A stretch of 64,000 nucleotides of DNA from Candidatus Kaiserbacteria bacterium RIFCSPHIGHO2_01_FULL_58_22 (GCA_001781445.1 MFLB01000034.1:17793-81792), one strand, 5' to 3'. Counted from the stretch's first letter, positions 3,082-48,335 are shown. Numbers and translations are program-made. The notes: generated by a model from the sequence alone, not told the origin.

Positions 3082-3512
3082 GACTCGCCGAAGTACTCCT
3101 CGCCGCCTCGGCGCTCTTCTTCGTATTCCTTGCCGCGCGCGCCTTCGGCTTCAAGGCGTGCGCGGCGTGCGCCGCCTTCGCATGCGCGTGGCTCGGGCTC
3201 CTCGCGCTCCGCTACTTCGGAGAAGACATAGACCCGGCGCTCATCGGGGTCCTGATGGGCGGGAGCGTCGTCGGCGTCATGTATCTCTTGCGGGAGAAAC
3301 TGCCGGAGGAGTACCGGCTCTTCACGTTTCCCTTTCTAGCGACCTTCTTCGCGCTCGCGTATCTCCTCCTTGCAGACGTCCCCATCAAGGGAAGCGCGTA
3401 CCTTCTTCTCGCAGCGCTCTGGCTCGGGTTCGGGATAATCTTTCTCGCGCGGAACAATGAGGCGGTGAAAGGCGCGGCACAAAAGCTTATCGAGTGCTGT
3501 AAAAATTGGTAA
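3072..3512 (+). CDS. integral membrane protein (four TM helices; CAACAAFAC and C-terminal CC)
   Basis: In-frame ATG at 3072 within ORF 2625-3512. Hydrophobic throughout and overlaps the previous gene by 10 bp. Confidence 0.45.
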   Translation: MAVGLAEVLLAASALFFVFLAARAFGFKACAACAAFACAWLGLLALRYFGEDIDPALIGVLMGGSVVGVMYLLREKLPEEYRLFTFPFLATFFALAYLLLADVPIKGSAYLLLAALWLGFGIIFLARNNEAVKGAAQKLIECCKNW

Positions 3513-4402
3513 CCATGGAAACACACATGAATTATTGGAAGCTCTCGACCATCGTGCTCGCGCTCGTCGTACTCGCTGGCGTTGAGAACGCGCTTCCCGG
3601 GCGCGCGGCGCCTCCGGACGCCGCGCGCCGAAGCGTCGACATCGAAAAGCTCGCAGAGAATGTCATTCCCGAAGATGGCGTCGCGCTTCCTATCCGTTGG
3701 GGCAACCTTGGGAAGCGCATGGTGGAGGCGGGCGTGATAGATACAGATGCATTCAACCAGCTCTACGCAGGGCGCGGCGGTTTGAGCGCGCAGGGGAGCG
3801 CGATGCTCGGAGGCGACCATGGGGAACCGGTAGTTATTGGCCGGGAGAACGCGGGAGAACTCCTAAATCTATTTTGGGCATTGGGGCTCGGTAATGCGAA
3901 TCCCATTCTTGCCGACGCCGAAGAAATGATGAACCCGGCGTATGGAGGCGCGGGCGGATTCGCCGCAACCGGCGGCTGGACCCTTGCGAACGGAGATCCC
4001 ATGAACCACTACAACGCTCATGCGCTGGTCTCGATCACGCCGGAGGAGCAATCCCTGGTGGAGCGCGTGAGCGAGAACATCCACCGCCCCTGTTGCGGGA
4101 ATTCTGCGCATTTTCCCGACTGCAATCACGGGATGGCGATGCTCGGTCTCCTCGAACTCCTTGCCGCGAACGGCGCGAGCGAGGAGGAGATGTACGAAAC
4201 AGCGCTCGCCGCGAACTCATACTGGTTTCCCGACACCTACCTCGTCATCGGGCAGTACCTCGCCGAGCAAGGAACCGCATGGGAGGACGCCGACCCGAAA
4301 GAAATCCTCGGCGTTGCCTATTCAAGCGCCGAGGGCTACCAGCGCATCATGAGCATGGTCGAGGGGCCCGTGCAGAACGGGGGAGGGAGCTGTGGTGCGT
4401 AG
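3506..4402 (+). CDS. secreted/membrane-anchored hypothetical protein (HRPCCGNSAHFPDCNHG motif); its 3' end is reconstituted by the left copy of a 37-bp direct repeat
   Basis: 298-aa ORF with an N-terminal TM/signal segment. Its last 11 codons lie inside the repeat 4371-4407. Confidence 0.55.
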   Translation: MVTMETHMNYWKLSTIVLALVVLAGVENALPGRAAPPDAARRSVDIEKLAENVIPEDGVALPIRWGNLGKRMVEAGVIDTDAFNQLYAGRGGLSAQGSAMLGGDHGEPVVIGRENAGELLNLFWALGLGNANPILADAEEMMNPAYGGAGGFAATGGWTLANGDPMNHYNAHALVSITPEEQSLVERVSENIHRPCCGNSAHFPDCNHGMAMLGLLELLAANGASEEEMYETALAANSYWFPDTYLVIGQYLAEQGTAWEDADPKEILGVAYSSAEGYQRIMSMVEGPVQNGGGSCGA

Positions 4403-4407
4403 GTATC
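4371..4407 (+). repeat. 37-bp perfect direct repeat, left copy (tgcagaacgggggagggagctgtggtgcgtaggtatc)
   Basis: Identical 37-mer at 7659-7695. A further shared gtcgag hexamer lies 7 bp upstream in copy 1 and 5 bp upstream in copy 2. Confidence 0.9.
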
Positions 4408-4455
4408 CTTACATGGCAAGTCGCCAGAGATGAACAATAAGTAACGAAAACAGTC

Positions 4456-5031
4456 ATGAGCACTAAACAATTACAGATCAGCGTAATAGCGGCGCTCCTC
4501 CTTATAGGAGGCGCGTACTACTTCAGTGCAACGCCTCGAACTCCGCTCCCGCGTATCACCGACGAAATTCTCGCGGCTAAGTTTGATGTCTTGAGCAAGC
4601 GTGGCAACTCGTCGTGTTCTGCCGCGTTCGCCGACTCGATAGACACGATGGCCGATACAGCGCGGTTTCAGGGCTCGTGTTGCAGTCCGATGGATACGCA
4701 TCGCTATGAAGAACAAATCACGGGACTCACAAAATTCAAAGATATTCCAGACATACCGACAGACCCGTATGACATTGATGCCGGCTTGGCAAAAATGTTT
4801 AAAGACTACTACGATGTAGAACTTACTCCCGAAGAACAGACGGCATATGACTACGCGATACGTAATTCAAACGAGAAGGGGCCGTGCTGTTGTAAGTGCT
4901 GGAGATGGTATGTTTACGGGGGCTTGGGAAAGTTACTCATTCAGAAATACGGGTTTACCGGCGAGCAAGTTACGCAGGTCTGGGACCTTTCAGACGGTTG
5001 TGGCGGCGAGGGTGAACACGTCAATCATTAG
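4456..5031 (+). CDS. Cys-rich secreted/membrane-anchored hypothetical protein (SCCSP, GPCCCKCW, DGCGG)
   Basis: 191-aa ORF with an N-terminal TM helix and 11 Cys. Intermediate GC (~50%) compared with the flanks. Confidence 0.5.
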   Translation: MSTKQLQISVIAALLLIGGAYYFSATPRTPLPRITDEILAAKFDVLSKRGNSSCSAAFADSIDTMADTARFQGSCCSPMDTHRYEEQITGLTKFKDIPDIPTDPYDIDAGLAKMFKDYYDVELTPEEQTAYDYAIRNSNEKGPCCCKCWRWYVYGGLGKLLIQKYGFTGEQVTQVWDLSDGCGGEGEHVNH

Positions 5032-5051
5032 CGGTCATCAATGCAAAATGT

Positions 5052-5528
5052 ATGAAATACTTCTTTATCGGCATCGGGGCGCTCGTCGCTCTCGCGCTCG
5101 GGGCGACGCTCTTCACCTCGCCTTCGGATCAGAGCGGCCCGAGTGATCCGAACATCCTCGCGGTCGGCGGCATGCACTGGCATCCGAGCATTCGCATCTT
5201 CGTCAAAGGTGAGGAGGTGGAAATACCCCAGAATGTCGGCATCGGGGCAGTGCATCAACCGATGCATACGCACGACGACCTTCCCATTATTCACCTTGAA
5301 TTCCCGGCAATCGTTCGCAAGGACGACATCCGGCTTGGCCGCTTCTTCGAAATATGGGGGCGCAATATGCGCTCGTTCGGGGAGGATATGCTCCCGAGCG
5401 ACGAGCGAGGCAGTACTGAAGCCAGTGGGCTGAATGTGCGCATGACGGTGAACGGCAAAGAAAACATCGAGCACGAGAACTACGTCATGCGCGACAAGGA
5501 CGTAATAGAATTACACTACGACTACTAA
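5052..5528 (+). CDS. secreted hypothetical protein, His-rich (GMHWHP, HQPMHTHDD)
   Basis: 158-aa ORF with a signal-peptide-like N-terminus and intermediate GC. Confidence 0.5.
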   Translation: MKYFFIGIGALVALALGATLFTSPSDQSGPSDPNILAVGGMHWHPSIRIFVKGEEVEIPQNVGIGAVHQPMHTHDDLPIIHLEFPAIVRKDDIRLGRFFEIWGRNMRSFGEDMLPSDERGSTEASGLNVRMTVNGKENIEHENYVMRDKDVIELHYDY

Positions 5529-5600
5529 TGACTGAAAACCTGCGAATACGAGTCTAAGTGAGCTCCGAGTCTGATGCCGAGGGATTGTGGGCGAGAGAGC

Positions 5601-5628
5601 TATAGCGCGTTACCTATAGCGCGTTACC
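5601..5628 (+). promoter_or_regulatory. tandem 14-bp direct repeat (TATAGCGCGTTACC x2) abutting the -35 of the AbiEi-like gene; putative autoregulatory operator
   Basis: Two perfect tandem copies read from the sequence immediately upstream of TTGACT at 5629. Confidence 0.4.
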
Positions 5629-5657
5629 TTGACTAGATATTTCAGATATGATACATT
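5629..5657 (+). promoter_or_regulatory. sigma70-like promoter TTGACT-17-TACATT for the AbiEi/AbiEii-like cassette
   Basis: -35 TTGACT (5629-5634), 17-nt spacer, -10 TACATT (5652-5657), 12 nt before the ATG at 5670. Confidence 0.5.
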
Positions 5658-5669
5658 ATTGTCATAGTT

Positions 5670-6287
5670 ATGAAAAGTAAGAAAAACCTGCTGGAACAGC
5701 TGAATAATTTGCCCCATTTCACCAAAAGCACAGTGTATCAGCTCGGTAGTCAGTTAGGGTTAAAAAACAGTACGCTGAATACCTACATCAGCCGCTTTGT
5801 GAAGCGCAAGGATATTTTGCCGCTGAAAAACGGCCTGTATATCTCTGCCAAATTTTTCGCAGACAATAGAAGCGATATCTCGTACTCTTTCTACCTCGCA
5901 AACATACTCCGTACGCCATCGTACGTAAGTTCGTGGACCGCACTCCAGTACTACAATTTCACTACCGAGGCGATACGCTCCATCACGTCAATTACGTCGA
6001 AAGTCACACGGGATTACGAGACGAAGGCCGGCGCTTTTTCATATCAGTCAATCAACAGAAAACTTTTTTCGGACTACTCGCTCGTCAAAGGAAAATTTGA
6101 TTTCTACATCGCCTCGCCGTCTAAGGCGTTGTTTGACTTGCTGTACTTTAGGACGCACCAGTTCCGAGGCGTCCGGTTTGAAGACATTATAAAAATGGTA
6201 GAAGAATTGCGGATAGATATTGACGAAATGGACGAGGCGGAACGAAGCAATTTCTATGAAAAAGTAAAAGCATATCTCCATGAGTGA
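5670..6287 (+). CDS. AbiEi-like protein (type IV TA antitoxin / transcriptional regulator family; N-terminal wHTH)
   Basis: 205-aa ORF in a ~38% GC segment. Size, N-terminal HTH-like region and the 8-bp overlap with a downstream DUF1814 nucleotidyltransferase gene match AbiEi-AbiEii organisation. Confidence 0.6.
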   Translation: MKSKKNLLEQLNNLPHFTKSTVYQLGSQLGLKNSTLNTYISRFVKRKDILPLKNGLYISAKFFADNRSDISYSFYLANILRTPSYVSSWTALQYYNFTTEAIRSITSITSKVTRDYETKAGAFSYQSINRKLFSDYSLVKGKFDFYIASPSKALFDLLYFRTHQFRGVRFEDIIKMVEELRIDIDEMDEAERSNFYEKVKAYLHE

Positions 6288-7593
6288 TCGTATTATTGCC
6301 ATCTTAAAGAAAGAACTCGATGAGCTTGCCGTCCATGGCGAGTTGAGAGCTGATGTCCGTCAGAACAAGCTCAAGGAAGCACTACAGTACCTTGTTCTTG
6401 ACTTTATCTATCACCACCCAGAATACAGCAAGTGGGTAATGTATGGTGGATCAGCGTTACGCATTATTCACGGGCTTGACCGTATGTCAGTAGATTTAGA
6501 TTTTGAAGTCGCACATGATGTAGACAAAACGTTCTTGGAAGAATTGAGGAAGGAGACTGAAACGCACTTCGCAAACACATATGGAACTACCGGCGATTTT
6601 TTTACACTAAAGATAATCTCGACCAGAAGCTTGCTTCTAAAATTCAACGTCGGAAATGTTCTAGACTTTGGACATACATCTAAGCAGGTGCATGTCAAAA
6701 TTGACCTCAATCATTTTGTTGCCCCAAAGACCGTAACGGAACGTAGGCCCATTAATCACGGTCAGACATCCTTCGTGATTTTGACCTACAACAAGGGCGC
6801 ACTTATGGCGAGTAAAATTGCTGCCATACTTCTGCGCGAAGAGCGGGGTGTTGGAAATAATACATACAATTACAAAGGTCGGGATATTTATGACCTGCTC
6901 TGGTACATGAAAGAAAAAACAACACCGGATTTCGACTACCTAAATGCGAAACTTACGGAAAGGAAAAAGGCAATACCGGATATACGGACACTATTCGACA
7001 CGCTTACGGTAGACATTCTAAATTACGAAAAAATGGACGATTGTCTGAAAGACGATCTCTCATATCTCTTTGAGAATCCGCATCAGTTTGATACATGGTC
7101 ACGGACTTGGCGGGACAGTTATCTGCGATATCTTAACGACTATAAAATTCGTATCATCACCAAACTTGATAAAATTCGTGTAAACCATTGGGTTCTAATA
7201 GGGAAAGCAGATGAGCATGATTTTGAATATTGGTATAAAACAACTGAGAATAGTCTTGGGCGGATTGTATATAGATTACACGAGGACTGCATTATCTATG
7301 GGGAACATGACGTATCTGTCGAAATCGACGAAGAACTAGAAGGTCTAATTGAATTCTCGAGCAACATCCTCTATTCCAGAACAGAAGCGGAAGAAAAGAA
7401 ACTCAAACGGTACGCAACACTCTTTCACAAGAAAACAGAGAACTATTTTAAGAAAACGAATCGCGTCATGCTCGGAGATGTCATTGCTACAAAAGTCATC
7501 CGAATGACAGCTGATAATCTCAATCCAAAGGAGCAGATTTTGCTCAATCGGTCGGCGCTGGAATCCCGTGAACTAGATGACTTCTTGAAGTAA
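6280..7593 (+). CDS. AbiEii/AbiGii-family nucleotidyltransferase (DUF1814) with an ~140-aa C-terminal extension
   Basis: MYGGSALRIIHGLDRMSVDLDFEV matches the GS...[DE]xD NTase core of AbiEii toxins. At 437 aa it is longer than typical members. AT-rich codon usage. Confidence 0.7.
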   Translation: MSDRIIAILKKELDELAVHGELRADVRQNKLKEALQYLVLDFIYHHPEYSKWVMYGGSALRIIHGLDRMSVDLDFEVAHDVDKTFLEELRKETETHFANTYGTTGDFFTLKIISTRSLLLKFNVGNVLDFGHTSKQVHVKIDLNHFVAPKTVTERRPINHGQTSFVILTYNKGALMASKIAAILLREERGVGNNTYNYKGRDIYDLLWYMKEKTTPDFDYLNAKLTERKKAIPDIRTLFDTLTVDILNYEKMDDCLKDDLSYLFENPHQFDTWSRTWRDSYLRYLNDYKIRIITKLDKIRVNHWVLIGKADEHDFEYWYKTTENSLGRIVYRLHEDCIIYGEHDVSVEIDEELEGLIEFSSNILYSRTEAEEKKLKRYATLFHKKTENYFKKTNRVMLGDVIATKVIRMTADNLNPKEQILLNRSALESRELDDFLK

Positions 7594-7658
7594 AGTGAAG
7601 CGTAAATCCATGAAAAAATCGCTGATTGAAGAACTACCAAAAATTGTCGTCGAGTTCG

Positions 7659-7695
7659 TGCAGAACGGGGGAGGGAGCTGTGGTGCGTAGGTATC
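7659..7695 (+). repeat. 37-bp perfect direct repeat, right copy
   Basis: Identical to 4371-4407. Preceded by an AT-rich 26-codon ORF remnant (7610-7690, MKKSLIEELPKIVVEFVQNGGGSCGA) that ends with the same 11 residues as gene 3506-4402. Confidence 0.9.
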
Positions 7696-7723
7696 AGAAA
7701 AGTGATACATTGGAAGCAATCAT

Positions 7724-8047
7724 ATGAAACTCGGCATAATCTTACAATCCAACAAGCCGGAACACGCGTGGAATACGTTCCGCCTTGGCATCGCCGCGCT
7801 TAAAGCCGATCATCACGCGGAGATTTTCCTGATGAGCGAGGGGTCGGAGCTGGACGACATCCCGGACAGCGAAGACTTTGACGTTTCCGCGAAAGTCGCG
7901 GAATTCAAGGAACTGAAAGGCGCGATATACGCGTGCGGCTCGTGTCTGAAAGTGCGCGGCAGGGAAAGCGGGACGTGTCCGGTCTCCACGATGTCCGACT
8001 TGCTCGCCATGGTCGAAAGTTCGGACAAAGTGCTGGTTTTCGGATAG
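7724..8047 (+). CDS. DsrE/DsrF-like family protein
   Basis: 107-aa ORF (MKLGIILQSNKPEHAWNTFRLGIAAL...IYACGSCLKVRG) resembling the DsrE/YchN-like fold. Confidence 0.6.
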   Translation: MKLGIILQSNKPEHAWNTFRLGIAALKADHHAEIFLMSEGSELDDIPDSEDFDVSAKVAEFKELKGAIYACGSCLKVRGRESGTCPVSTMSDLLAMVESSDKVLVFG

Positions 8048-8139
8048 TCGCACGAGTGATGTTCGACCCGCGAGGCCGAACGCACCCCGTGAAATAGGGA
8101 TAAGCGCGGTCGCATGACCGGATATGCGCGGCACGGCGA

Positions 8140-8167
8140 TTGACAGGATACCCCCTGGGGGTATCAT
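8140..8167 (+). promoter_or_regulatory. promoter TTGACA-16-TATCAT with an embedded perfect 19-bp palindrome GATACCCCC-T-GGGGGTATC (8147-8165; CsoR/RcnR-type operator)
   Basis: Read directly from the sequence. The palindrome fills the spacer. The ATG of the ATPase gene is at 8174, which would give a leaderless or near-leaderless transcript. Confidence 0.6.
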
Positions 8168-8173
8168 GGAAAT

Positions 8174-10345
8174 ATGAATCCGGGCACTCCCCATAGCGGC
8201 GAGCCGATGGACTGTTGTCACTCGGAAGCAGAGTCTGCCGCGTCGCAAAAAACGAGCGGTGGCGTTTCGTACGCGTGCCCCATGCATCCGGAGGTCATTC
8301 GTGAAAAGCCGGGGATGTGCCCGGAGTGCGGGATGGCACTGCTTCCGCAGAAGCACGAAACCCGAAGCACGAGGCCCGAAACCGGGAGAAGCGCTGACGA
8401 CAGGCACGAGGGACATAAAACGTCCTCGTTCCTGAAAAAGTTCTGGGTTGTCTCGGTCCTGACGGTGCCCATCGTCGCGTATTCCGATTTGCCGGAGCTT
8501 TTCTTCGGTTGGACGGCGCCGGCATTCCCGGGTTCCGAATATCTTCAGCTTGTACTCGGGTCCTTTGTTTTCTTTTACGGCGGGCTCGTGTTCCTGCGAG
8601 GCGCTGTGAGCGAACTTCGCGCGCGGCTCCCCGGAATGATGACGCTTATCGGGCTCGCGATAAGCGCCGCATACATATGGAGCGCGTACGCGGTCTTCGC
8701 GGGCGAAGAGCCGTTGTTCTGGGAGCTCGCGACCTTGATCGGCGTGATGCTTCTCGGTCACTGGGTCGAGATGCGCGCGGTGCGAAGCGCGAAGGGCGCA
8801 CTGCGCGAGCTTGCGAAGCTTCTCCCCGACAGCGTGGAAGTAGTGCGCGACGGCACGACGCGAACGGTGTCGCTTGCGGAGCTTCTAGAAGGCGACGTCG
8901 CTCTCGTGCGGCCGGGCGGGAAGATCCCGGCGGACGGCGTTGTGGGTGGGGGGGAGTCAGACGTGGACGAATCGCTCGTGACGGGCGAGTCGCGCCCGGT
9001 CGCAAAGCGCGCGGGTTCGGAAGTCATCGGCGGCTCGGTCAACGGCGACGGCGCGCTCCGCATCCGCATCGCAAAAGTCGGCGAGCGCACCTTTCTCGCG
9101 GGCGTCGTGCGCCTCGTTGCCGAAGCCGAGGCCTCGAAATCGCGCCTCCAGCTTCTCTCCGATCGCGCGGCGTTTTATCTCACCGTTCTCGCCGTCGGCG
9201 CGGGAGCCATCACGTTTGTCGCGTGGCTCGGCGTCGGAGAGAGCGTCGGCTTCTCGGTGGAGCGGCTCGTTGCCGTTCTTATCATCGCGTGTCCTCACGC
9301 GCTCGGCCTCGCGATACCGCTCGTCGCGTCGATTTCAACCACGATGGCCTCGCAACACGGCTTTTTTGTGAAGCGGCGGCTCGCGCTCGAAGCGGCGCGC
9401 AACGTGACAACGGTGCTTTTCGACAAGACGGGCACGCTCACCGAGGGGCGCTTCGGCGTCGTCGAGGTGCTCGGCGGCAATGAAACGCTCGCGCTCGCCG
9501 CCGCGGCCGACGCGAATTCCGAGCACCCCATCGGCCGCGCGATCGTCGCACATGCGAAGGAGAAGGGCGTCGCAATACGGCCCGTGTCGTCGTTCAGAAA
9601 TCTGCGCGGCATGGGCGTGCGGGTCACGCTCGACGCGGCGGAAGTATACGCGGGTTCATCAACGCTACTCGAAGAGCGCGGCGCCTCGGTGCCGCGCGAG
9701 CTCGAGGAAGCGGTGCGGATGCACGAGCGGGAGGGGAAGACCGTCGTTCATGTCATACGGAGAGGGGAGTGGGTGGGCGCTGTGGCGCTCGCAGATATCA
9801 TTCGCAACGGATCGCGCGAGGCCGTCGGCGCGCTCAAAGCGATGGGTCTCAAGGTGGCGATGCTCACGGGTGATGCGGAGGATGTTGCCGCATGGGTCTC
9901 GAAAGAGCTCGGCGTCGAGGAGTATTTCGCGCGCGTGCGCCCGGAGAAGAAAGCAGAGACCGTCAAAAAGCTCCGTCGGCGGGGCGAGCGCGTCGCGATG
10001 GTCGGGGACGGGGTGAACGACGCACCCGCGCTCGCGGAAGCCGATCTCGGCATTGCCGTCGGGGCCGGCACGAACGTCGCCATCGAATCGGCCGGCATCA
10101 TTTTGGTGCGCAACGATCCGCGCGACATCCCGAAGGTCGTCAAGCTCTCCCGGCTCACCTATACGAAGATGCTCCAGAACCTCTTTTGGGCGACGGGCTA
10201 CAATGTGGCGGCGCTCCCTTTGGCCGCGGGCGCGTTATTCGCCTATGGCATCGTCCTTCAGCCCGCCGTCGCCGCCGTCTTTATGTCCGCCTCCACCGTC
10301 ATCGTCGCCGCGAACGCCGCTCTCCTGCGCCACCGCACGCTGTGA
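8174..10345 (+). CDS. heavy-metal (copper) translocating P1B-type ATPase, CPH subtype, with N-terminal CPMHPE...CPECGM heavy-metal-binding domain
   Basis: Contains DKTGTLT, the transmembrane CPH motif (IIACPHALGLAIP), GDGVNDAPAL, and an N-terminal YACPMHPEV...PGMCPECGMAL domain. 723 aa. Confidence 0.9.
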   Translation: MNPGTPHSGEPMDCCHSEAESAASQKTSGGVSYACPMHPEVIREKPGMCPECGMALLPQKHETRSTRPETGRSADDRHEGHKTSSFLKKFWVVSVLTVPIVAYSDLPELFFGWTAPAFPGSEYLQLVLGSFVFFYGGLVFLRGAVSELRARLPGMMTLIGLAISAAYIWSAYAVFAGEEPLFWELATLIGVMLLGHWVEMRAVRSAKGALRELAKLLPDSVEVVRDGTTRTVSLAELLEGDVALVRPGGKIPADGVVGGGESDVDESLVTGESRPVAKRAGSEVIGGSVNGDGALRIRIAKVGERTFLAGVVRLVAEAEASKSRLQLLSDRAAFYLTVLAVGAGAITFVAWLGVGESVGFSVERLVAVLIIACPHALGLAIPLVASISTTMASQHGFFVKRRLALEAARNVTTVLFDKTGTLTEGRFGVVEVLGGNETLALAAAADANSEHPIGRAIVAHAKEKGVAIRPVSSFRNLRGMGVRVTLDAAEVYAGSSTLLEERGASVPRELEEAVRMHEREGKTVVHVIRRGEWVGAVALADIIRNGSREAVGALKAMGLKVAMLTGDAEDVAAWVSKELGVEEYFARVRPEKKAETVKKLRRRGERVAMVGDGVNDAPALAEADLGIAVGAGTNVAIESAGIILVRNDPRDIPKVVKLSRLTYTKMLQNLFWATGYNVAALPLAAGALFAYGIVLQPAVAAVFMSASTVIVAANAALLRHRTL

Positions 10346-10352
10346 AAATCGC

Positions 10353-10394
10353 ATATAACGCCAGCTCACGCGGCCGCGTGAGCTGGCGTTATAT
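10353..10394. terminator. 42-bp perfect palindrome (atataacgccagctcacgcggccgcgtgagctggcgttatat) downstream of the ATPase gene; likely bidirectional terminator hairpin
   Basis: Stem of about 19 bp read from the sequence. Flanking ATAT but no long T-run. Confidence 0.4.
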
Positions 10395-10458
10395 GTTCAT
10401 GGAGGCCCGCAGATATTCGACATGAGCCGATCATTCGTTTTGCGGGTATACTTGCGCT

Positions 10459-30499: not shown

Positions 30500-31789
30500 A
30501 TGCCGGAAGAAGATAAAGAAGGCCGCCCCGTCCATCCTCGCCCAACAGGGGCATTGCCGTTCAGGGATGAGTGGCGCATCCCGGCGCGCCTTGCGATCGC
30601 AGGGGGATGCATCGCGCTCGCCGTCGGTTTTGTTCTTGGAGTGGCGCTCGTTTCAGGCAAGGGAGCGGCGGCGCAACTTTCGGGCCCGCCCGAGGGCGTG
30701 GATTTCGATCCCGTGTGGAAGGCGTGGCGCATCATAGACGAGAAGTTCGTGCCGGCCGCTGTCGCGACCTCGACGCGGGTCGCTTCCTCGACCGAGGAGA
30801 GGAACGAAGCGCGCGTCTGGGGAATGATACAGGGGCTCGCGGAGTCGCTCGGCGACCCGTACACCTTCTTCCTTCCGCCCAAGGAGAACGAGATATTCGC
30901 GGAGGACATCAGCGGCGCCTTCGAGGGCGTCGGGATGGAAATCGCGGTGCGCGATCAGGTCCTCACCGTTGTTTCGCCGCTTAAGGGGACGCCCGCGGAG
31001 CGTGCGGGCATCAGGAGCGGCGATAGGATCCTCGAGATCGACGGCGTCGAGACGCGCGGCATGGACATCTCGACCGCGGTCTCGCGCATCCGCGGGCCGC
31101 GGGGGACGCAGGTCAGGCTTCTTGTCATGCGCGAAGGGTTCCCGGAGCCGCGCGAATTCGAAGTAACCCGCGAGGTCATCAACGTGCCTATCGTCGCGAC
31201 GGAAGCGCGTTCCGGCGTATTCGTCATAGAACTCCAGAGCTTCACGGCGAATTCGCCGGAGCTCTTCAGGCGCGCGCTCCGGGAGTTCGTCGAGTCGGGC
31301 AGTCGCAATCTCGTTCTCGACCTTCGCGGAAATCCGGGCGGCTATCTGGAGGCGGCGGTCGACATGGCGAGCTGGTTCCTGCCCTCGGGTAGGGTCGTCG
31401 TCACAGAGGATTACGCCGGGAACGCCGAAAGCGTCGTGCATCGCTCGCGCGGTTACGATGTGTTCAACGAGAACCTGCGCATGGTCATTCTCGTCGACCG
31501 CGGCAGCGCCTCGGCTTCCGAGATTCTTGCCGGCGCGCTTCAGCACTACGGTATCGCTACAATGGTGGGGGACAGGACCTTCGGGAAGGGCTCGGTGCAG
31601 GAACTTGTGGAGATAACCGACGATACGTCGCTCAAGCTCACCGTCGCGCGCTGGGTGGGGCCGGGAGGCGAGCCGATACCGCTGGAAGGACTCGTCCCGG
31701 ATGTGCAGGTGAACATGACCGAAGAGGACCGGGAGGCGGGGAGAGACCCGCAGATGGAAAAAGCCGTTGAGGTAGTCAGTAGTCAGTAG
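30500..31789 (+). CDS. ctpA: carboxyl-terminal processing protease (S41 family, PDZ domain)
   Basis: LDLRGNPGGYLEAAVDMASWF and the S41 catalytic region. 429 aa. Confidence 0.85.
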   Translation: MPEEDKEGRPVHPRPTGALPFRDEWRIPARLAIAGGCIALAVGFVLGVALVSGKGAAAQLSGPPEGVDFDPVWKAWRIIDEKFVPAAVATSTRVASSTEERNEARVWGMIQGLAESLGDPYTFFLPPKENEIFAEDISGAFEGVGMEIAVRDQVLTVVSPLKGTPAERAGIRSGDRILEIDGVETRGMDISTAVSRIRGPRGTQVRLLVMREGFPEPREFEVTREVINVPIVATEARSGVFVIELQSFTANSPELFRRALREFVESGSRNLVLDLRGNPGGYLEAAVDMASWFLPSGRVVVTEDYAGNAESVVHRSRGYDVFNENLRMVILVDRGSASASEILAGALQHYGIATMVGDRTFGKGSVQELVEITDDTSLKLTVARWVGPGGEPIPLEGLVPDVQVNMTEEDREAGRDPQMEKAVEVVSSQ

Positions 31790-31803
31790 TCTGTAGTTAG
31801 TAG
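31772..31803 (+). repeat. heptamer tandem repeat (GTAGTCA x3, GTAGTCT, GTAGTTA...) overlapping ctpA stop; inverted counterpart CTAACGA/CTAACTA... at 31838-31869 running into rplI start
   Basis: 7-bp periodicity read directly from the sequence. The 14-mer TCTGTAGTTAGTAG recurs at 32595-32608. Confidence 0.7.
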
Positions 31804-31872
31804 AAAATAGTGACGAGAAAAAGAATTCAGGACCACTAACGACTAACTACTTTCTACCAACTATCTACTGTT

Positions 31873-32316: not shown

Positions 32317-32585
32317 AGGACGTCGACGATGGGGCGGCGGGCGGAGCGGCCGTCGAAGTCGGTCTTTCTTTTGTTGCGGAAGCGCACCGTGCCCGCAACG
32401 CGCGCGAAGAGCGTGTAGTCGCTTCCGACGCCGATGTTCCGGCCCGGCAATATCTTCGTGCCGCGCTGGCGCACGACTATCTCGCCAATGGCCACTTTTT
32501 GCCCGTCGGCGCGCTTGACCCCCAAATACTTGGGATTCGAATCGCGGAGATTTTTCGCTGTTCCGCCCGCTTTGGTCGTTGCCAT
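32313..32585 (-). CDS. rpmA: 50S ribosomal protein L27
   Basis: [24 protein letters not shown]...[14 protein letters not shown]. 90 aa. Confidence 0.9.
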
Positions 32586-32597
32586 AGAAAATAGTCT

Positions 32598-32625
32598 GTA
32601 GTTAGTAGCACGTAGTTAGTAGTTG
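32598..32625 (+). repeat. heptamer tandem repeat (GTAGTTA GTAGCAC GTAGTTA GTAGTTG)
   Basis: Four 7-bp units in the divergent rpmA / 32657 intergenic region. Confidence 0.7.
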
Positions 32626-32656
32626 AAAACAATACCAAGCCCCGTATCATGGAGCG

Positions 32657-33040
32657 GTGGTAAAGATACAGGAAAGTTGGCAGAAAATCAAGAATGCCTT
32701 GGAGGACGGGGTCGGGGAGTGGGGGGTTATCGCCATCGTGGTTTTGGTCGGATTTTCCTCGTTCGGTCTCGGGCGCCTTTCCGCGCTCGAGGGCGCAAAA
32801 CCGGCTGTTTCGATACGGGAAGCGCAGACGGGAGCCGCCGCGCGCGCGCTTCCTCTCGGCGGCCTTGTCGTCGCTTCTCGGAAGGGGAGCGCGTACCACT
32901 ATCCGTGGTGCTCGGGCGCTGAAAGTATCGCCGAGCAGAACAAGATCTGGTTCAAAAGCGAAGAAGCGGCTCGCAAAGCGGGATACACACCTGCCAAGAA
33001 TTGTAAAGGACTCGGACAGCCGGCAGCTAGTAGCCAGTAG
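32657..33040 (+). CDS. membrane-anchored hypothetical protein with C-terminal Cys-containing domain (YHYPWCSG...NCKG)
   Basis: 127-aa ORF with one TM helix. Family uncertain. Confidence 0.5.
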   Translation: MVKIQESWQKIKNALEDGVGEWGVIAIVVLVGFSSFGLGRLSALEGAKPAVSIREAQTGAAARALPLGGLVVASRKGSAYHYPWCSGAESIAEQNKIWFKSEEAARKAGYTPAKNCKGLGQPAASSQ

Positions 33041-33076
33041 CCTGCGGCCATGAGAAAATGCGCGCTATGCATCCGT

Positions 33077-34239: not shown

Positions 34240-35259
34240 TTATCGGTCGTCCATCTCTTTTCCGCCGTGGAACTTTTCATGTATGTCGCGCAGGCGTTTA
34301 TTGGTGACATGCGTATAGATTTGCGTGGTCGCGACGTTCTTGTGGCCGAGAAGCTCCTGCACGCTCCGCAGGTCCGCTCCGTGAGAGAGAAGATCCGTCG
34401 CGTAGGTATGCCGGAGCGTGTGGGGCGTTACCTTTTTCGCGAGGCCGGCGAGAACCGCGCATTTCGAGATCATCATTTGTATGTAGCGGGGCGAGAGGCG
34501 CCTGTTTTCGGTTTTTTTCGACCGGTGGTTGATGAAGAGCGGATCGTGGACGTCGCGGCGGGTCGCGAGGTATGCACGCAGCCACTTGGCCGCGCGGGGG
34601 GAGATGAACACCGTTCTGACATATTTTCCTTTGCCCACGATGGAAAGCTCGAACGTCCGCGCGCCGTCCTCCTGCTTGAGGAAAGAGACGCGATCGGCGT
34701 CGAGCGCGGTGAGTTCCGAAATGCGCATTCCCGAAGAGAAAAAAAGTTCCATGATCGCGCGGTCGCGCAATCCGTTCTGCGTCGAGACGTCCGGTATCTT
34801 CAGCATGCGCTCCATATCCCGCGTGTCCAAGAAGGAGATTGTCTCGTCGGACTTCTGTTTGGCAAGCTTGATCTTCGACGAAGGAAGAGACTCGATGTCG
34901 CGGTCGGCGAAATAAGCAAGAAGGGCCCGCAGGGCGATGAGGTAGTAGTTCTGGGACTTTTTGCTCAAGGAGGCGCCCACGGGCGTTTTGTGCCCGCGGG
35001 CGAGGTAGAGGCGGTAGTCCCAAATATGCCGGGCGGTAAGCTCGCGGGGAAGCAGAGACTCTTGTCCGGTTTTGCGGAGCCACGTCGTGAACAGCTTCAG
35101 ATACTGTCCGTAATTTTTCTGTGTATTGTTCGAAAGCCCTTTCTCGATCTCGCAGTAATCAAGGAACGGCGTTACGTACGATGAGATTTTCTTTTGCGTC
35201 GCGGGGGAGGTGGGGGACATGAGGTATGACTGTGACGTTACTATTATTTTATACGGCAA
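34240..35259 (-). CDS. tyrosine site-specific recombinase (XerC/XerD-like)
   Basis: C-terminal HTLRHTYATDLLSHGADLRSVQELLGHKNVATTQIYTHV (R-H-R-Y catalytic region) and an N-terminal SAM-like domain. 339 aa. Confidence 0.85.
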   Translation of the reverse strand: MPYKIIVTSQSYLMSPTSPATQKKISSYVTPFLDYCEIEKGLSNNTQKNYGQYLKLFTTWLRKTGQESLLPRELTARHIWDYRLYLARGHKTPVGASLSKKSQNYYLIALRALLAYFADRDIESLPSSKIKLAKQKSDETISFLDTRDMERMLKIPDVSTQNGLRDRAIMELFFSSGMRISELTALDADRVSFLKQEDGARTFELSIVGKGKYVRTVFISPRAAKWLRAYLATRRDVHDPLFINHRSKKTENRRLSPRYIQMMISKCAVLAGLAKKVTPHTLRHTYATDLLSHGADLRSVQELLGHKNVATTQIYTHVTNKRLRDIHEKFHGGKEMDDR

Positions 35260-44446: not shown

Positions 44447-45240
44447 AATTAGTTAATGGGGATACGTTAATGGGGTTAATGGGGATACGTCCGTTATTTT
44501 GCACAACTTTGTTGCATAATATCATTGCTGTTTCGGTCTTCCGGGCCCTCTCATGGTACCTTCCATATCATACTCCTCAATCATCCATGTGGTCCATGCG
44601 GTCGACCCATACGGCGCTCCTTTTTTAACGGAGGTGCGAATAGATTCCAGCGCTTCCTTGTTGACGGTGTTCACCAGCGAGAGGTAATCGCGGGGTAACG
44701 CAATGGGAAGCGGCGCGAGCAGTTTCTTGTCCTCGTTGTTCCCTCTCCTGCGTCGATACAGACTCGAGTAAGGCCAACGCTCCGCGCGAGTGACGAGGCG
44801 CGCGCGGAGAGGATTCTGCTCCACGTAGTGTATCACGGTGACGAGATGCTGATCTTCTTGTATCGGAAAAGACTTGTACGACCCCTGGTAGAGGTGGCCG
44901 CCGCCGACGGTTTTGGTGCGCACGCGGCGCTGTCGCACGTGCGTCGTCGTGACCCAGCGCATGAATTCGCTCATGTCTCGGTCGCGCTTTGGATGCAGAA
45001 CGAGGTGCCAATGGTTAGGCATGATGCAGTACGCAAGGATGCGCATGTCGATCAGTTCGACACCTTCTTTGAGTAGCGCCTCGAAGTGCCGATAGTCTTT
45101 TTCATCGTGGAAAATCCTTGCGCGCCCGTTCGCGCGGTTGAGCACATGATACGGCATGTTACCGACGGCAACGCGCGCTAGTCGCGGCATGAACAATACT
45201 ATGCCATGAAAAGAGGCGATATATCGGACTTATCCCCATT
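44447..45240 (-). mobile_element. IS200-like element (Y1/HUH transposase) with terminal inverted AATGGGGATA(c/a)GT motifs; left end carries three tandem TTAATGGGG(ATACG) units
   Basis: Left end 44453-44492 (ttaatggggatacg ttaatgggg ttaatggggatacgtcc). Right end ACTTATCCCCATT at 45228-45240. A second, internally deleted copy with the same ends is at 47896-48335. Confidence 0.7.
44522..45190 (-). CDS. Y1 (HUH) transposase, IS200/RAYT-like long form
   Basis: [15 protein letters not shown]...[17 protein letters not shown] (HuH) and a C-terminal WPYSSLY motif. ATG at 45190 (the track uses a TTG two codons upstream). Confidence 0.8.
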
Positions 45241-46173: not shown

Positions 46174-46842
46174 CTACTTTGTGAATTTTAAAGTAGTGAG
46201 AATGGTCTCAAAGTCTTTCACGCAGTTGCTGCTTATCGTCGGACGATTTGCCGAAGTGCTTTTATAGGTAGAATAGGTAGACTTGACTAGCTCGTTGGAA
46301 AGTGAGAGTAAATTGAGCGGGACATCATAAATTCCGTCGGAAAGAATGATGTTGGGGAGACCTAGAAAAACTCCACCGTCACTGTAATTAACATATCTGA
46401 TTGTTTGTGATTTGCCACTCGTCATCACGACCGATTTGTTGCTTTGAGTAAAATGACCGCCCAGACCCACTCCCAGCACAGGTCCTATGTAGCAACCGTT
46501 CTGGGTATCGATCAGTTCAAAGAAATCGTAGCCATCTCGATAAGGACTTTGCGTTACCCATAATTCATTTGACGCCGTGTTCAGAAAAAAATTCGACGGA
46601 TATTTAAACTCTATGCCCCACTTATCACTTCGGTACGTTTTCCAATTTGCCGTTCCTGCCGTTGGAGATGGCGAGGTCGGTTGCGTCGGCAAGGGCTGGA
46701 GAATATCTAAATTATCTTCTGACGAGCTTTGTGAAGGCGGTTGCTGCTGCAGAACAAAGTACGCCCCACCCCCAACTACAATGACGCCCAGTATGATCGC
46801 CAGTAAGATGCCCATTGAGACAACGCCCCTTTGAGTGTTCAT
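46174..46842 (-). CDS. hypothetical secreted/membrane-anchored protein (lower GC, Ser/Thr/Pro-rich linker)
   Basis: 222-aa ORF with an N-terminal TM helix and AT-richer composition than the flanks. Confidence 0.45.
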   Translation of the reverse strand: MNTQRGVVSMGILLAIILGVIVVGGGAYFVLQQQPPSQSSSEDNLDILQPLPTQPTSPSPTAGTANWKTYRSDKWGIEFKYPSNFFLNTASNELWVTQSPYRDGYDFFELIDTQNGCYIGPVLGVGLGGHFTQSNKSVVMTSGKSQTIRYVNYSDGGVFLGLPNIILSDGIYDVPLNLLSLSNELVKSTYSTYKSTSANRPTISSNCVKDFETILTTLKFTK

Positions 46843-47895: not shown

Positions 47896-48335
47896 GGATA
47901 TTGGGGTCAGTCCCCATATTATTAATATTCTCGTGGTCTAATATTCCTTCGGCCTTCGGGCTCGCGGAGCGTGTGCGCAAGGTTGTGCCGCCCGACCATC
48001 CGGCTTCGCCACGACTCCCTGCCATATGGTATCCCCTTCCGGATAGATTCGCGAATGTCCGCAAGCTCTTCGGGAGAATCTGGTGTATTGATCCATGTGC
48101 GGTAATTGCGCGGCAAATCGAGTGGTAATTCGGCGAGAAGTTTCTTCTCTTTGAGCGTTCCGTTGATTCTTTGGTATGCGCTACCCCATCGCCATACTTC
48201 AGCCTGCTTCGCGAGTCGGGATAATGGGGATACGTCCAATATTCTTAATAATTATGTGTCATGATGTTTTTCACGGTCATGGAAATACTATGCCATGAAA
48301 AGCGCTGATAAATCAGACTTATCCCCATTTCCCCC
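47896..48335 (-). mobile_element. internally deleted second copy of the IS200-like element (transposase C-terminal 105-aa remnant 47922-48239; conserved 5' flank and ACTTATCCCCATT end at 48318-48330)
   Basis: The remnant ORF is homologous to the C-terminus of the 44522-45190 transposase (WRWGSAY / LPLDLPRNY / IRKGIPYGRESW). The 48283-48330 flank is ~85% identical to 45196-45240. The junction carries AATGGGGATACGTCC. A hairpin ATATTGGGG-tcagt-CCCCATAT lies at 47898-47919. Confidence 0.55.

What the first reader, a model, noticed from the sequence alone, without database searches (positions are those of the whole stretch)
4371..7695. 3.25-kb insertion bounded by perfect 37-bp direct repeats that duplicate the 3' end of a metal-locus gene
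The 37-mer tgcagaacgggggagggagctgtggtgcgtaggtatc occurs twice, at 4371-4407 and 7659-7695. A further shared gtcgag hexamer lies 7 bp upstream in copy 1 and 5 bp upstream in copy 2.

- Copy 1 supplies the last 11 codons (VQNGGGSCGA*) of gene 3506-4402. Copy 2 is preceded by an AT-rich 26-codon remnant ending in the same residues.
- The intervening 3.25 kb carries four genes of clearly lower GC: two at ~50% and two at ~38%, against ~65% flanks.

This is the architecture of an integrative element that targets the 3' end of a protein-coding gene and reconstitutes it (attL/attR with a 37-bp core). No integrase lies inside the insert, so it is either a decayed islet, or it was mobilised in trans (a XerC/D-like recombinase sits at 34240).
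Basis: seen in the sequence. Interest (0 to 1): 0.65.

Follow-up and report, generated by a model that had tools for sequence, protein, structure and literature searches.

The report
Integrase-less islet behind a copper-locus gene
A 3.25-kb block of two copper-locus genes and an AbiE toxin-antitoxin pair sits right after a copper-locus gene of a groundwater Kaiserbacterium, bracketed by a 39-bp duplication of that gene's end. It is a real and fixed insertion, but of an ordinary kind, and nothing shows that it still moves.

Summary
The exact direct repeat is 39 bp (4369-4407 and 7657-7695), it occurs only twice in the window, and its edges are sharp. It brackets 3,249 bp carrying c191, c158, AbiEi and AbiEii. 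Independent assemblies show the same structure, so it is not an artefact.

- **Insertion reading supported.** The closest relatives with context (65% identity) go from the target gene G298 to one or two other genes, and in L011 on to CopA. L011 has the window's right-flank motif directly after its G298 stop.
- **Mosaic insert.** Only AbiE is clearly foreign (41-44% GC; about 81% identical to modules in other aquifer CPR genomes). c191 and c158 are ordinary copper-locus genes elsewhere.
- **No mobility evidence.**
  - No integrase, terminal inverted repeats, empty site, circular junction or second occurrence was found.
  - The recombinase at 34240 is a Xer-type enzyme 27 kb away, and the site is not dif-like.
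- **Repeat perfection may be secondary.** Three assemblies carry a right copy with three clustered substitutions that destroy conserved residues. This implies gene conversion, so perfect identity is not proof of recency.

Best reading (0.45): a decayed, non-autonomous, CIME-like islet from site-specific integration, probably held in place by AbiE. Main rival: a leftover of illegitimate recombination.

The parts
3506..4402 (+). Target gene 'G298'. Gene callers start it at 3515 or 3527. It is an uncharacterised protein of a Patescibacteria copper locus, and its last 31 nt plus stop lie in the left repeat.
   Evidence: ORF. More than 4,600 homologues share a conserved C-terminal GGGxCG[AV]* tail. 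The gene belongs to a conserved DUF411-TM173-TM146-G298 cassette.
4369..4407 (+). Left copy of the 39-bp direct repeat (attL-like). It covers the last 10 codons of G298, the stop codon and 5 nt beyond.
   Evidence: It is invariant in all contigs that cover it.
4408..7656 (+). The inserted segment of 3,249 bp. It is a mosaic of two copper-locus genes and an AbiE module, with no mobility gene and no terminal inverted repeats.
4456..5031 (+). c191: a membrane-anchored, Cys-rich protein (CC, CCCKC motifs) with no family assignment. Its homologues sit in copper loci of other Patescibacteria.
   Evidence: No Pfam or NCBIfam hit. Homologues are 70-80% identical. Contexts are shown in L042 and L122. 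GC3 is 0.56, against 0.73-0.85 for the neighbouring host genes.
5052..5528 (+). c158: a small exported protein with a His-rich motif (HQPMHTHDD). Its homologues frequently lie next to G298 homologues.
   Evidence: tblastn places it next to G298 in L016, L028, L042, L051, L069 and L085. GC3 is 0.73, within the host range.
5600..5627 (+). Tandem duplication 2 x CTATAGCGCGTTAC. It abuts the left edge of the AbiE module and has no copy at the right edge.
   Evidence: Read from the sequence. It is absent upstream of the related AbiE modules.
5626..7593 (+). AbiE type IV toxin-antitoxin / abortive-infection module. It comprises a promoter (TTGACT-17-TACATT at 5629-5657), AbiEi (5670-6287) and AbiEii (6280-7593, a long 437-aa form).
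   Evidence: PADLOC gives AbiEi 3e-36 and AbiEii 2e-30; Pfam gives AbiEii 7e-22. It is 80.5-81.7% identical in nucleotides to modules in other genomes of the same aquifer over exactly 5626/5639-7592/7593. The promoter is conserved.
7610..7690 (+). A fortuitous 26-codon ORF. Only its last 13 codons come from G298, so it is a non-functional remnant.
   Evidence: The variant allele changes the conserved Gly and the invariant Cys, giving VQNGEGSYGA.
7657..7695 (+). Right copy of the 39-bp repeat (attR-like). It is the displaced original end of G298, and it is polymorphic in the population (G7671A, G7680A, T7684C in three assemblies).
7694..7711 (+). Ancestral intergenic, promoter-like motif TCAGAAAAGTGATACATT, 12 nt upstream of the DsrE start. 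The insertion point cuts it after TC.
   Evidence: L011 has TCAGAATAGTGCATAAT directly after its G298 stop.
7724..8047 (+). DsrE-like gene, the host gene that would follow G298 in the reconstructed empty site.
   Evidence: Pfam DsrE 2.7e-9.
34240..35259 (-). Xer-type tyrosine recombinase. It is the only candidate trans-acting recombinase in the window, and no link to the islet has been shown.
   Evidence: Pfam Phage_integrase 3.5e-39. NCBIfam XerC 227.6 bits and XerD 221.2 bits over the full length, below the equivalog cut-offs. It is flanked by a NUDIX gene.

Best explanation
The segment 4408-7656 is a small, non-autonomous genomic islet. It entered the copper locus of this Kaiserbacterium directly behind gene G298 by recombination at a 39-bp site that overlaps the gene's 3' end. 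The gene end now exists twice: a functional copy at the left junction and a displaced, useless copy at the right junction.

**Likely origin (inferred).** The most likely origin is integration by a tyrosine-type site-specific recombinase that is not, or is no longer, encoded in the islet. That makes it a decayed, CIME-like element.

**Mosaic build (shown).** The islet combines two copper-locus accessory genes (c191, c158) with an AT-rich AbiE toxin-antitoxin module of the kind circulating among Patescibacteria of the same aquifer.

**Present state.**
- It is fixed in the population (shown).
- Its two repeat copies have exchanged sequence by gene conversion (inferred from the variant allele).
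- It is probably held in place by AbiE addiction, because loss through recombination between the repeats would remove the antitoxin (inferred from published AbiE behaviour).
- c191 and c158 follow G298 with no promoter- or terminator-like signal in the intergenic spacer, and DsrE keeps its own promoter-like motif downstream of the right repeat. The insertion therefore leaves the operon logic intact.
For: - **Repeat.** The 39-bp repeat is exact, present only twice, and not expected by chance. Its boundaries are sharp.
- **Gene integrity.** The left copy completes G298 with the family's conserved C-terminal tail. The right copy is followed by the motif that follows the G298 stop in relative L011.
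- **Relatives lack the insert.** L011 has G298-DUF302-CopA, with synteny on both sides. L119 and L117 have other genes at that position.
- **Composition.** GC3 is 0.44 for AbiEii, 0.58 for AbiEi and 0.56 for c191, against 0.73-0.85 for the neighbouring host genes. c191 is not low in GC3 relative to its neighbours in L042 or L122.
- **AbiE moves between genomes.** The AbiE module is about 81% identical to modules in Lloydbacteria-type contigs from the same samples. Those sit in defence islands, one beside a large serine recombinase.
- **Not an artefact.** The structure is identical in 17 distinct contigs from independent assemblies.
- **Precedents in the literature.**
  - CIMEs keep attL and attR but have lost their integration genes (PMC5704250).
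  - An integrase-less island bounded by short repeats has been described (PMC5426353).
  - AbiE stabilises an integrated element (PMC11062541).
Against: - There is no integrase or integrase remnant. The non-coding pieces are only 48, 20, 141 and 63 nt long.
- I saw no pair of inverted recombinase-binding arms around a spacer inside the repeat. The only palindrome, TAGGTATC-N8-GATACATT, straddles the right edge and is absent from attL (read from the sequence).
- No empty site, circular junction or partial state was found in any contig read.
- None of 80 other genomes repeats the end of its G298 homologue. No second copy of the element or its core was found.
- The cargo is what the slot behind G298 normally holds in other genomes. 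This fits chromosomal recombination as well as it fits an element.
- The variant right copy shows that the site is not conserved as a recombination site would be.
Confidence: 0.45

Rival explanations
1. The duplication is a leftover of illegitimate recombination and no dedicated recombinase was involved. DNA from a closely related strain carried G298-c191-c158-AbiE. It recombined through homology on the left (G298 and upstream genes). On the right it was joined illegitimately to the recipient chromosome 39 bp before the end of the recipient's own G298. This is homology-facilitated illegitimate recombination after DNA uptake. The right repeat is then the stump of the recipient's original gene, and the repeat ends where the two copper-locus variants stop being homologous.
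For: - There is no integrase, no recognisable site architecture and no recurrence (sequence).
- c191 and c158 are the natural downstream neighbours of G298 homologues in other genomes.
- The right edge of the repeat lies just past the stop codon, where variant loci would diverge.
- The slot behind G298 differs in every relative examined.
- Strains of this population exchange tracts by recombination, shown by the SNP cluster 9859-10087 in L005 and L003.
- The mechanism itself is taken from established knowledge of natural transformation, not tested here.
Against: - It needs a donor whose G298 tail is almost identical but whose downstream content differs, and no such genome was found.
- There is no significant microhomology at the 7656/7657 joint.
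- c191 is compositionally foreign next to G298, so a further transfer is still required.
- Duplications from this process are rarely documented in natural genomes (background knowledge).
Confidence: 0.28
2. Campbell-type integration of a circularised DNA fragment. A single crossover, RecA-dependent or RecA-independent, occurred through a short stretch (39 bp or a little more) identical to the end of G298, and it duplicated that stretch.
For: - A direct repeat of the homology segment flanking the insert is exactly what a single crossover gives.
- RecA-independent recombination between short direct repeats of an integrase-less island is documented (PMC5426353).
- Later gene conversion shows that the two copies do interact.
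Against: - Homology does not extend beyond the 39 bp, which is near the lower limit for efficient homologous recombination.
- It does not explain why an AT-rich foreign circle would carry a host-like GC-rich copy of this lineage's gene end, because G298 tails of relatives differ strongly.
Confidence: 0.12
3. A target-site duplication. It would have arisen from transposition or from fill-in repair of a staggered break 39 bp wide.
For: The duplication has sharp edges on both sides and no extended homology.
Against: - There are no terminal inverted repeats and no transposase in the insert.
- 39 bp is far longer than the duplications known for bacterial transposons (background knowledge).
- The IS200-type transposase at 44522-45196 belongs to a family that makes no duplication.
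Confidence: 0.05
4. An assembly artefact. A chimeric join at a shared k-mer would have placed foreign DNA between two copies of a repeat.
For: The source is a metagenome-assembled genome, and the repeat length is in the range of assembler k-mers.
Against: The structure is the same in 17 distinct contigs from different samples, years and assemblers, including k=141 contigs that span both repeats.
Confidence: 0.01

Closest known systems
[quoted passage not shown]
   Same: - It is bounded by direct repeats that include the 3' end of a protein-coding gene, and the gene is kept intact.
- It has no integrase and no transfer genes.
- It carries adaptive and defence cargo.
- It is stably integrated.
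   Different: - No parent ICE or IME with the same att core is known.
- No conjugation machinery is known in this lineage.
- It is only 3.25 kb long, and part of its cargo is typical of the target locus itself.
- Its right repeat is decaying in part of the population.
Integrase-less small genomic islands bounded by short direct repeats, such as the E. coli microcin H47 island (PMC5426353)
   Same: It is a small island that encodes no site-specific recombinase and is bounded by short direct repeats. Host functions are presumed to do the recombination.
   Different: The H47 island has been shown to excise. No excision product or empty site was found here.
IMEX elements, which are integrated by the host XerC/D recombinases at dif (for example CTX phage and the gonococcal genetic island; from background knowledge)
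   Same: The element has no integrase of its own, and a Xer-type recombinase is present in the host.
   Different: The site is the end of a copper-locus gene and not a dif site. I saw no 11-6-11 dif-like arms: 7/11 matches to the XerC arm of E. coli dif and 2/11 to the XerD arm, compared by eye on the sequence.
AbiE type IV toxin-antitoxin / abortive-infection modules on integrated elements (PMC3985639, PMC11062541)
   Same: It is a bicistronic, overlapping AbiEi-AbiEii operon with its own promoter. It lies on horizontally acquired DNA and plausibly stabilises it.
   Different: AbiEii is a long form of 437 aa with a C-terminal extension of about 160 aa, typical of Patescibacteria. Its function has not been tested.

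Membership tests
Integrative element / genomic island (tyrosine-recombinase type) | Flanking direct repeats (attL/attR) that share a core with the target | tested here: met
   The 39-bp repeat is exact, has sharp edges and is present only twice.
Integrative element / genomic island (tyrosine-recombinase type) | Integration into the 3' end of a gene, with the gene reconstituted | tested here: met
   The left copy supplies VQNGGGSCGA*, which matches the family's conserved tail.
Integrative element / genomic island (tyrosine-recombinase type) | An integrase encoded by the element | tested here: not met
   The four ORFs are c191, c158, AbiEi and AbiEii. The spacers of 48, 20, 141 and 63 nt leave no room for a remnant.
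Integrative element / genomic island (tyrosine-recombinase type) | Presence/absence polymorphism, or excision products (attB, attP) | tested here: not met
   - All 17 to 24 contigs read per marker are occupied.
- Collection scans for attB and for the core returned nothing.
- The metagenome collection also missed the known occupied JGI contigs, so those scans carry little weight.
- Raw reads could not be searched.
Integrative element / genomic island (tyrosine-recombinase type) | Composition that differs from the host | tested here: met
   AbiE is at 41-44% GC and c191 has GC3 0.56, against host genes at 0.73-0.85. c158 is not distinguishable from the host.
CIME (cis-mobilizable element) | Retains attL and attR but lacks integration and transfer genes | tested here: met
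   The definition is taken from PMC5704250.
CIME (cis-mobilizable element) | Derived from, or mobilisable by, an ICE or IME that uses the same att site | tested here: inconclusive
   No related element with an integrase was found, and no other genome has a repeat at the end of its G298 homologue among 80 loci. The rest of the host genome could not be searched.
IMEX (Xer-dependent integrated element) | Integration at a dif-like 28-bp site with XerC and XerD arms | tested here: not met
   The junction GGTGCGTAGGTATCAGAAAAGTGATACA matches 7/11 of the XerC arm of E. coli dif and 2/11 of the XerD arm. This was compared by eye on the sequence. The site is inside a copper operon.
IMEX (Xer-dependent integrated element) | Host Xer recombinase present | tested here: met
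   The protein at 34240-35259(-) scores 227.6 bits on the XerC model and 221.2 bits on the XerD model.
Transposon / insertion sequence | Transposase, terminal inverted repeats and a short target duplication | tested here: not met
   There is no transposase in the insert and no terminal inverted repeats. The duplication is 39 bp.
AbiE type IV toxin-antitoxin system | An AbiEi antitoxin gene followed by an overlapping AbiEii (DUF1814 nucleotidyltransferase) gene in one operon | tested here: met
   PADLOC gives AbiEi 3.2e-36 and AbiEii 1.8e-30; Pfam PF08843 gives 7.4e-22. The genes overlap by 8 nt and share a promoter at 5629-5657. Toxicity and defence were not tested.

The most novel reading that the evidence does not exclude
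The 39-bp core is a live recombination site. The cell's Xer-type tyrosine recombinase, or another enzyme acting in trans, would use it to insert and exchange gene cassettes in the variable slot behind G298 in Patescibacteria copper loci. This would be an integrase-less system, IMEX-like or integron-like, that acts at the end of a protein-coding gene in ultra-small bacteria, with AbiE addiction fixing the acquired cassette.
Probability: 0.06. Interest if true: 0.65.

Novelty: new member of a known kind. Interest (0 to 1): 0.3.

Why it matters
Mobile elements of Patescibacteria (the Candidate Phyla Radiation) are poorly catalogued, and these cells have tiny genomes with few recombination genes.

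This locus is a clean, population-fixed example of how such a genome gained a defence module and metal-handling genes at a precise point without damaging an operon. It also shows that a perfect flanking repeat can result from later gene conversion and need not signal recency.

It is useful as an annotated case, and as a caution for island-calling from perfect repeats. It does not change current understanding unless the site proves to be active.

Tried and rejected
- **Empty site or excised circle.**
  - Exact-protein look-ups of G298, DsrE, AbiEii and c191 found only occupied contigs.
  - Scans of metagenome contigs for the attB junction and for the core gave 0 hits. That collection also missed the JGI contigs known to carry the core, so the negatives are weak.
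  - Viral contigs gave nothing for the core or for AbiEii.
- **Recurrent hotspot.** None of the 80 genome loci with G298 homologues repeats its gene end.
- **General repeat-making mechanism for AbiE modules.** The close AbiE modules in L107 and L112 have no flanking repeats.
- **A longer decayed G298 fragment at the right end.** Rejected by an HMM with shuffle test and by anchored alignment.
- **Relatives of the three spacer pieces and of the remnant's N-terminal peptide.** Nothing significant was found.
- **Terminal inverted repeats.** None.
- **tRNA, tmRNA or Rfam targets at the site.** None.
- **Third source for the variant right copy in the window.** None.
- **Function of G298 and c191 from structure.** AlphaFold models had pLDDT 83 and 74, but Foldseek against the PDB gave no match with E below 1.
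- **Contig breaks at 3612-3628.** I first read these as a strain recombination point. They coincide with a GC-rich palindromic run, which I take to be a coverage problem (sequence).
- **An apparent split of CopA in L004.** It is a scaffold gap of Ns.

Full report
**1. The observation**

There is no other copy at up to three mismatches, and none is expected by chance.
- Reading the sequence shows that identity begins two bases earlier. The exact direct repeat is therefore 39 bp: 4369-4407 and 7657-7695, 3,288 bp apart, enclosing 3,249 bp.
An alignment anchored at the repeat edge and extended outward is matched by 42 of 500 shuffles upstream and by all 500 downstream. The duplication has sharp edges.
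- The left copy encodes the last ten residues and the stop codon of gene 3506-4402, here called G298.
- The right copy closes a 26-codon ORF, 7610-7690. The first 16 residues of that ORF carry no trace of the G298 family (211 of 500 shuffles score as well against a family HMM).
- Per-gene GC is 50.5% (c191), 56.4% (c158), 44.0% (AbiEi) and 41.5% (AbiEii). The flanks are 61.5% (G298), 55.9% (DsrE) and 65.0% (CopA).

**2. Where the window comes from, and whether the structure is real**

- Exact-protein look-ups place the window in a Candidatus Kaiserbacteria genome from the Rifle aquifer (GCA_001783445.1, MFMF01000018; also GCA_001004985.1).
- The same arrangement, with both repeat copies, is found in 17 distinct contigs. 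They come from NCBI, ENA and JGI assemblies of different samples, and several were built with k=141. A chimeric join at a 39-bp repeat is excluded.

**3. What the genes are**

- The surrounding locus is a copper locus: CsoR, DUF305, DUF411, two small membrane proteins, G298, then (after the insert) DsrE-like, a CopA-type P-type ATPase and a peroxiredoxin.
- G298 belongs to a large Patescibacteria family with more than 4,600 hits and no Pfam or NCBIfam model. The family has an invariant PCC...FPDCNHG block within the motif RPCCGNSxHFPDCNHGMAMLGL and a conserved Gly-rich C-terminal tail ending in Cys-Gly/Ser-Ala/Val/Ile.
- Inside the insert, 5670-6287 and 6280-7593 are an AbiEi/AbiEii type IV toxin-antitoxin pair (PADLOC 3e-36 and 2e-30; Pfam PF08843 7e-22). 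They have their own promoter at 5629-5657.
- c191 and c158 have no family assignment.
- Homologues of c191 and c158 lie in copper loci of other Patescibacteria.
  - In Kaiserbacteria L042 the order is G298-DUF305-c191-c158-multicopper oxidase.
  - c158 lies beside G298 in five further genomes.
  - The closest c191 (80% identity) sits between a DsbA-like gene and CsoR.

**4. Is it an insertion?**

- No genome close enough to give a true empty site could be found.
- The nearest relatives with context carry G298 homologues of 65% identity. L011 keeps the synteny CsoR...DUF411-TM-TM-G298 | CopA...aspartokinase-homoserine dehydrogenase and has a single DUF302 gene in the slot. L119, from the same aquifer, has rhodanese/DUF1573 genes there. 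The 71% relative L117 has yet another small gene.
- The slot behind G298 is therefore variable, and none of these relatives has c191, c158 or AbiE there.
- The most informative point concerns the flanks. The bases that follow the G298 stop in L011 (TTCAGAATAGTGCATAATGG) resemble the bases to the right of the window's right repeat (ATCAGAAAAGTGATACATTGG). They do not resemble those to the right of the left repeat (CTTACATGGCAAG).
- The right repeat and its flank are thus the ancestral end of G298 with its original downstream promoter-like region. Everything from 4408 to 7656 came in between.

**5. The insert is a mosaic**

- Nucleotide similarity (80.5-81.7%) to AbiE modules in other aquifer genomes runs from 5626 or 5639 to 7592 or 7593. 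One of those genomes is named Lloydbacteria. The similarity thus spans the -35 box to the AbiEii stop codon and nothing more.
- Those modules sit in defence islands next to methylase fragments, one beside a large serine recombinase. They have no flanking repeats.
- AbiE modules stay at about 40-44% GC in hosts whose surrounding DNA is 46% and 50% GC (the related loci) and 58% (this window).
- c191 has GC3 0.56 here. That is lower than its neighbours, although its homologues match their neighbours in L042 and L122. c158 has GC3 0.73 and cannot be told apart from host genes.
- The spacers of 48, 20, 141 and 63 nt have no relatives in any fetched locus.

**6. Evidence on mobility**

- There is no integrase, transposase or remnant of either in the insert, and no terminal inverted repeats.
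- The site holds no tRNA, tmRNA or Rfam family.
- Every contig that carries exactly the same G298, DsrE, AbiEii or c191 has the complete four-gene block. No empty site and no partial state was seen.
- None of 80 other genomes repeats the end of its G298 homologue.
- Scans for the attB junction and for the core found nothing. The metagenome collection also failed to return JGI contigs that do contain the core, so these negatives carry little weight.
- The recombinase at 34240-35259 is a full-length Xer-type enzyme next to a NUDIX gene, 27 kb away.
- By my reading of the sequence, the junction has no dif-like arms. The only palindrome, TAGGTATC-N8-GATACATT, straddles the right edge of the repeat and is missing at the left junction (sequence).

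**7. The variant right copy**

- Three independent assemblies (L010, L103, L106) carry CGTGCAGAACGGGGaAGGGAGCTaTGGcGCGTAGGTATC at the right junction. Their left copy is unchanged.
- In L010 these three changes are half of all six differences from the window over 8.8 kb. The chance that three of six differences fall in one given 39-bp stretch is about 2e-6 (my calculation).
- The variant turns the conserved Gly and the invariant Cys of the tail into Glu and Tyr. It cannot be the end of a working gene, so it is a decayed remnant.
- The clustering means the two alleles differ by a recombination event and not by point mutation after the strains split.
- The simplest account is that the decayed copy is older, and that the left copy overwrote it by gene conversion in the majority lineage. 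Import of a decayed copy from an unsampled lineage is the alternative.
- Either way, the insertion is older than the perfect repeat suggests, and the right copy is not conserved as an active recombination site would be.

**8. Mechanism**

- *Best reading (0.45).* A repeat of this length at the end of a gene, with the gene kept intact, is the standard signature of integration by a tyrosine recombinase. Elements that keep both junctions but have lost their recombination genes are known as CIMEs (PMC5704250). At least one integrase-less island bounded by short repeats has been studied (PMC5426353). My best reading is therefore a decayed, non-autonomous islet.
- *Main rival (0.28).* No element was involved. 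DNA from a closely related strain with a different copper-locus variant recombined through homology on the left and was joined illegitimately 39 bp before the end of the recipient's G298.
  - This accounts naturally for the missing integrase, the uniqueness of the event, cargo that is typical of this slot, and a repeat edge lying just past the stop codon.
  - It needs an unobserved donor, and the joint shows no significant microhomology.
- *Minor rivals.* These are a single crossover with a circularised fragment (0.12), a very long target duplication (0.05) and an assembly artefact (0.01).
- *Persistence.* AbiE modules act as toxin-antitoxin pairs and stabilise integrated elements (PMC3985639; PMC11062541). 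Loss by recombination between the repeats would remove the antitoxin. That would explain why no empty site is seen. This step is inferred, not shown.

**9. Comparison with known systems, and verdict**

- The islet works like a CIME or a decayed genomic islet. It meets the structural criteria: both junctions present, the gene end rebuilt, no integration genes. It fails or cannot be tested on the historical ones: no parent element and no excision.
- It is not an IMEX, not a transposon and not an assembly artefact.
- AbiE is common in groundwater genomes, and CPR defence systems are already under study (PMC12259885).
- The finding is a new member of a known kind, of modest interest. Its main lessons are the mosaic build of the insert and the evidence that the perfect repeat has been maintained or restored by gene conversion.

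Noticed in passing
window 3506-4402 (and loci L011-L090): G298 defines a very large Patescibacteria-specific family with more than 4,600 hits and no Pfam or NCBIfam model. It has an invariant PCC...FPDCNHG block within the motif RPCCGNSxHFPDCNHGMAMLGL and a flexible Gly-rich C-terminal tail ending in an invariant Cys, sometimes duplicated in tandem. It sits in a conserved DUF411-TM-TM-G298 cassette of copper loci. The AlphaFold model has pLDDT 83, and Foldseek against the PDB gave no match with E below 1. Only a non-significant local resemblance to the CcmH periplasmic domain appeared.
   Followed up: partly
window 4456-5031: c191 is unusually conserved: 70-80% identity across many CPR lineages and 79% mean column identity. 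It has an N-terminal membrane anchor and invariant Cys clusters (SCCSP, GPCCCKCWRWY, DGCGG). No family is assigned and no PDB fold match was found.
   Followed up: partly
window 5600-5627: A perfect tandem duplication of a 14-mer (CTATAGCGCGTTAC x2) ends one base before the -35 box of the AbiE promoter and overlaps the left edge of the AbiE nucleotide homology by two bases. It is absent from the related AbiE modules in L107 and L112.
   Followed up: no
window 6280-7593; proteins P0121-P0240: AbiEii here is a long form of 437 aa. The Pfam domain covers residues 45-236 and the best PADLOC model 24-277, which leaves a C-terminal extension of about 160 aa. That extension is conserved in length (about 424-439 aa overall) across nearly all of the full-length Patescibacteria homologues listed.
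   Followed up: no
window 44473-45240 and 48218-48329: An IS200-type Y1 transposase gene (44522-45196, minus strand) has end sequences that recur 3.1-3.7 kb away (75% and 89% identity) beside a short ORF at 47922-48239. The two copies bracket the low-GC gene 46174-46842 (GC3 0.49).
   Followed up: no
window 8139-8173: A GC-rich palindrome, GATACCCCCTGGGGGTATC, overlaps the strongest promoter-like site of the region (TTGACA-16-TATCAT, 8140-8167) just upstream of CopA. From background knowledge I suggest it is a CsoR operator. L117 has a similar TATACCCCCGGGGGGTAT downstream of its G298.
   Followed up: no
window 10352-10395: A perfect 22+22-nt palindrome (CATATAACGCCAGCTCACGCGG / CCGCGTGAGCTGGCGTTATATG) lies immediately after the CopA stop codon.
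   Followed up: no
window 9859-10087 (contigs L005, L003): A dense cluster of 8-13 SNPs inside CopA occurs in two assemblies that are otherwise 99.8-99.9% identical. This indicates a recombination tract imported from a related strain.
   Followed up: no
window 31780-31811, 32585-32630, 33031-33062: A family of TAGT-rich intergenic repeats (TAGTCAGTAGTCTGTAGTTAGTAG...) recurs between genes around 31.8-33.1 kb.
   Followed up: no
window 3597-3628: Four independent contigs start at 3612-3628, inside a GC-rich palindromic run at the 5' end of G298. I read this as a sequencing-coverage gap and not as a strain breakpoint.
   Followed up: partly
loci L112/L115 (3497-4780) and L122 (5768-7090): Large serine recombinases lie beside the closest AbiE module (with a methylase and a MutH-like gene) and beside the copper locus that holds the closest c191 homologue. 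In those genomes these blocks may be mobile islands.
   Followed up: no
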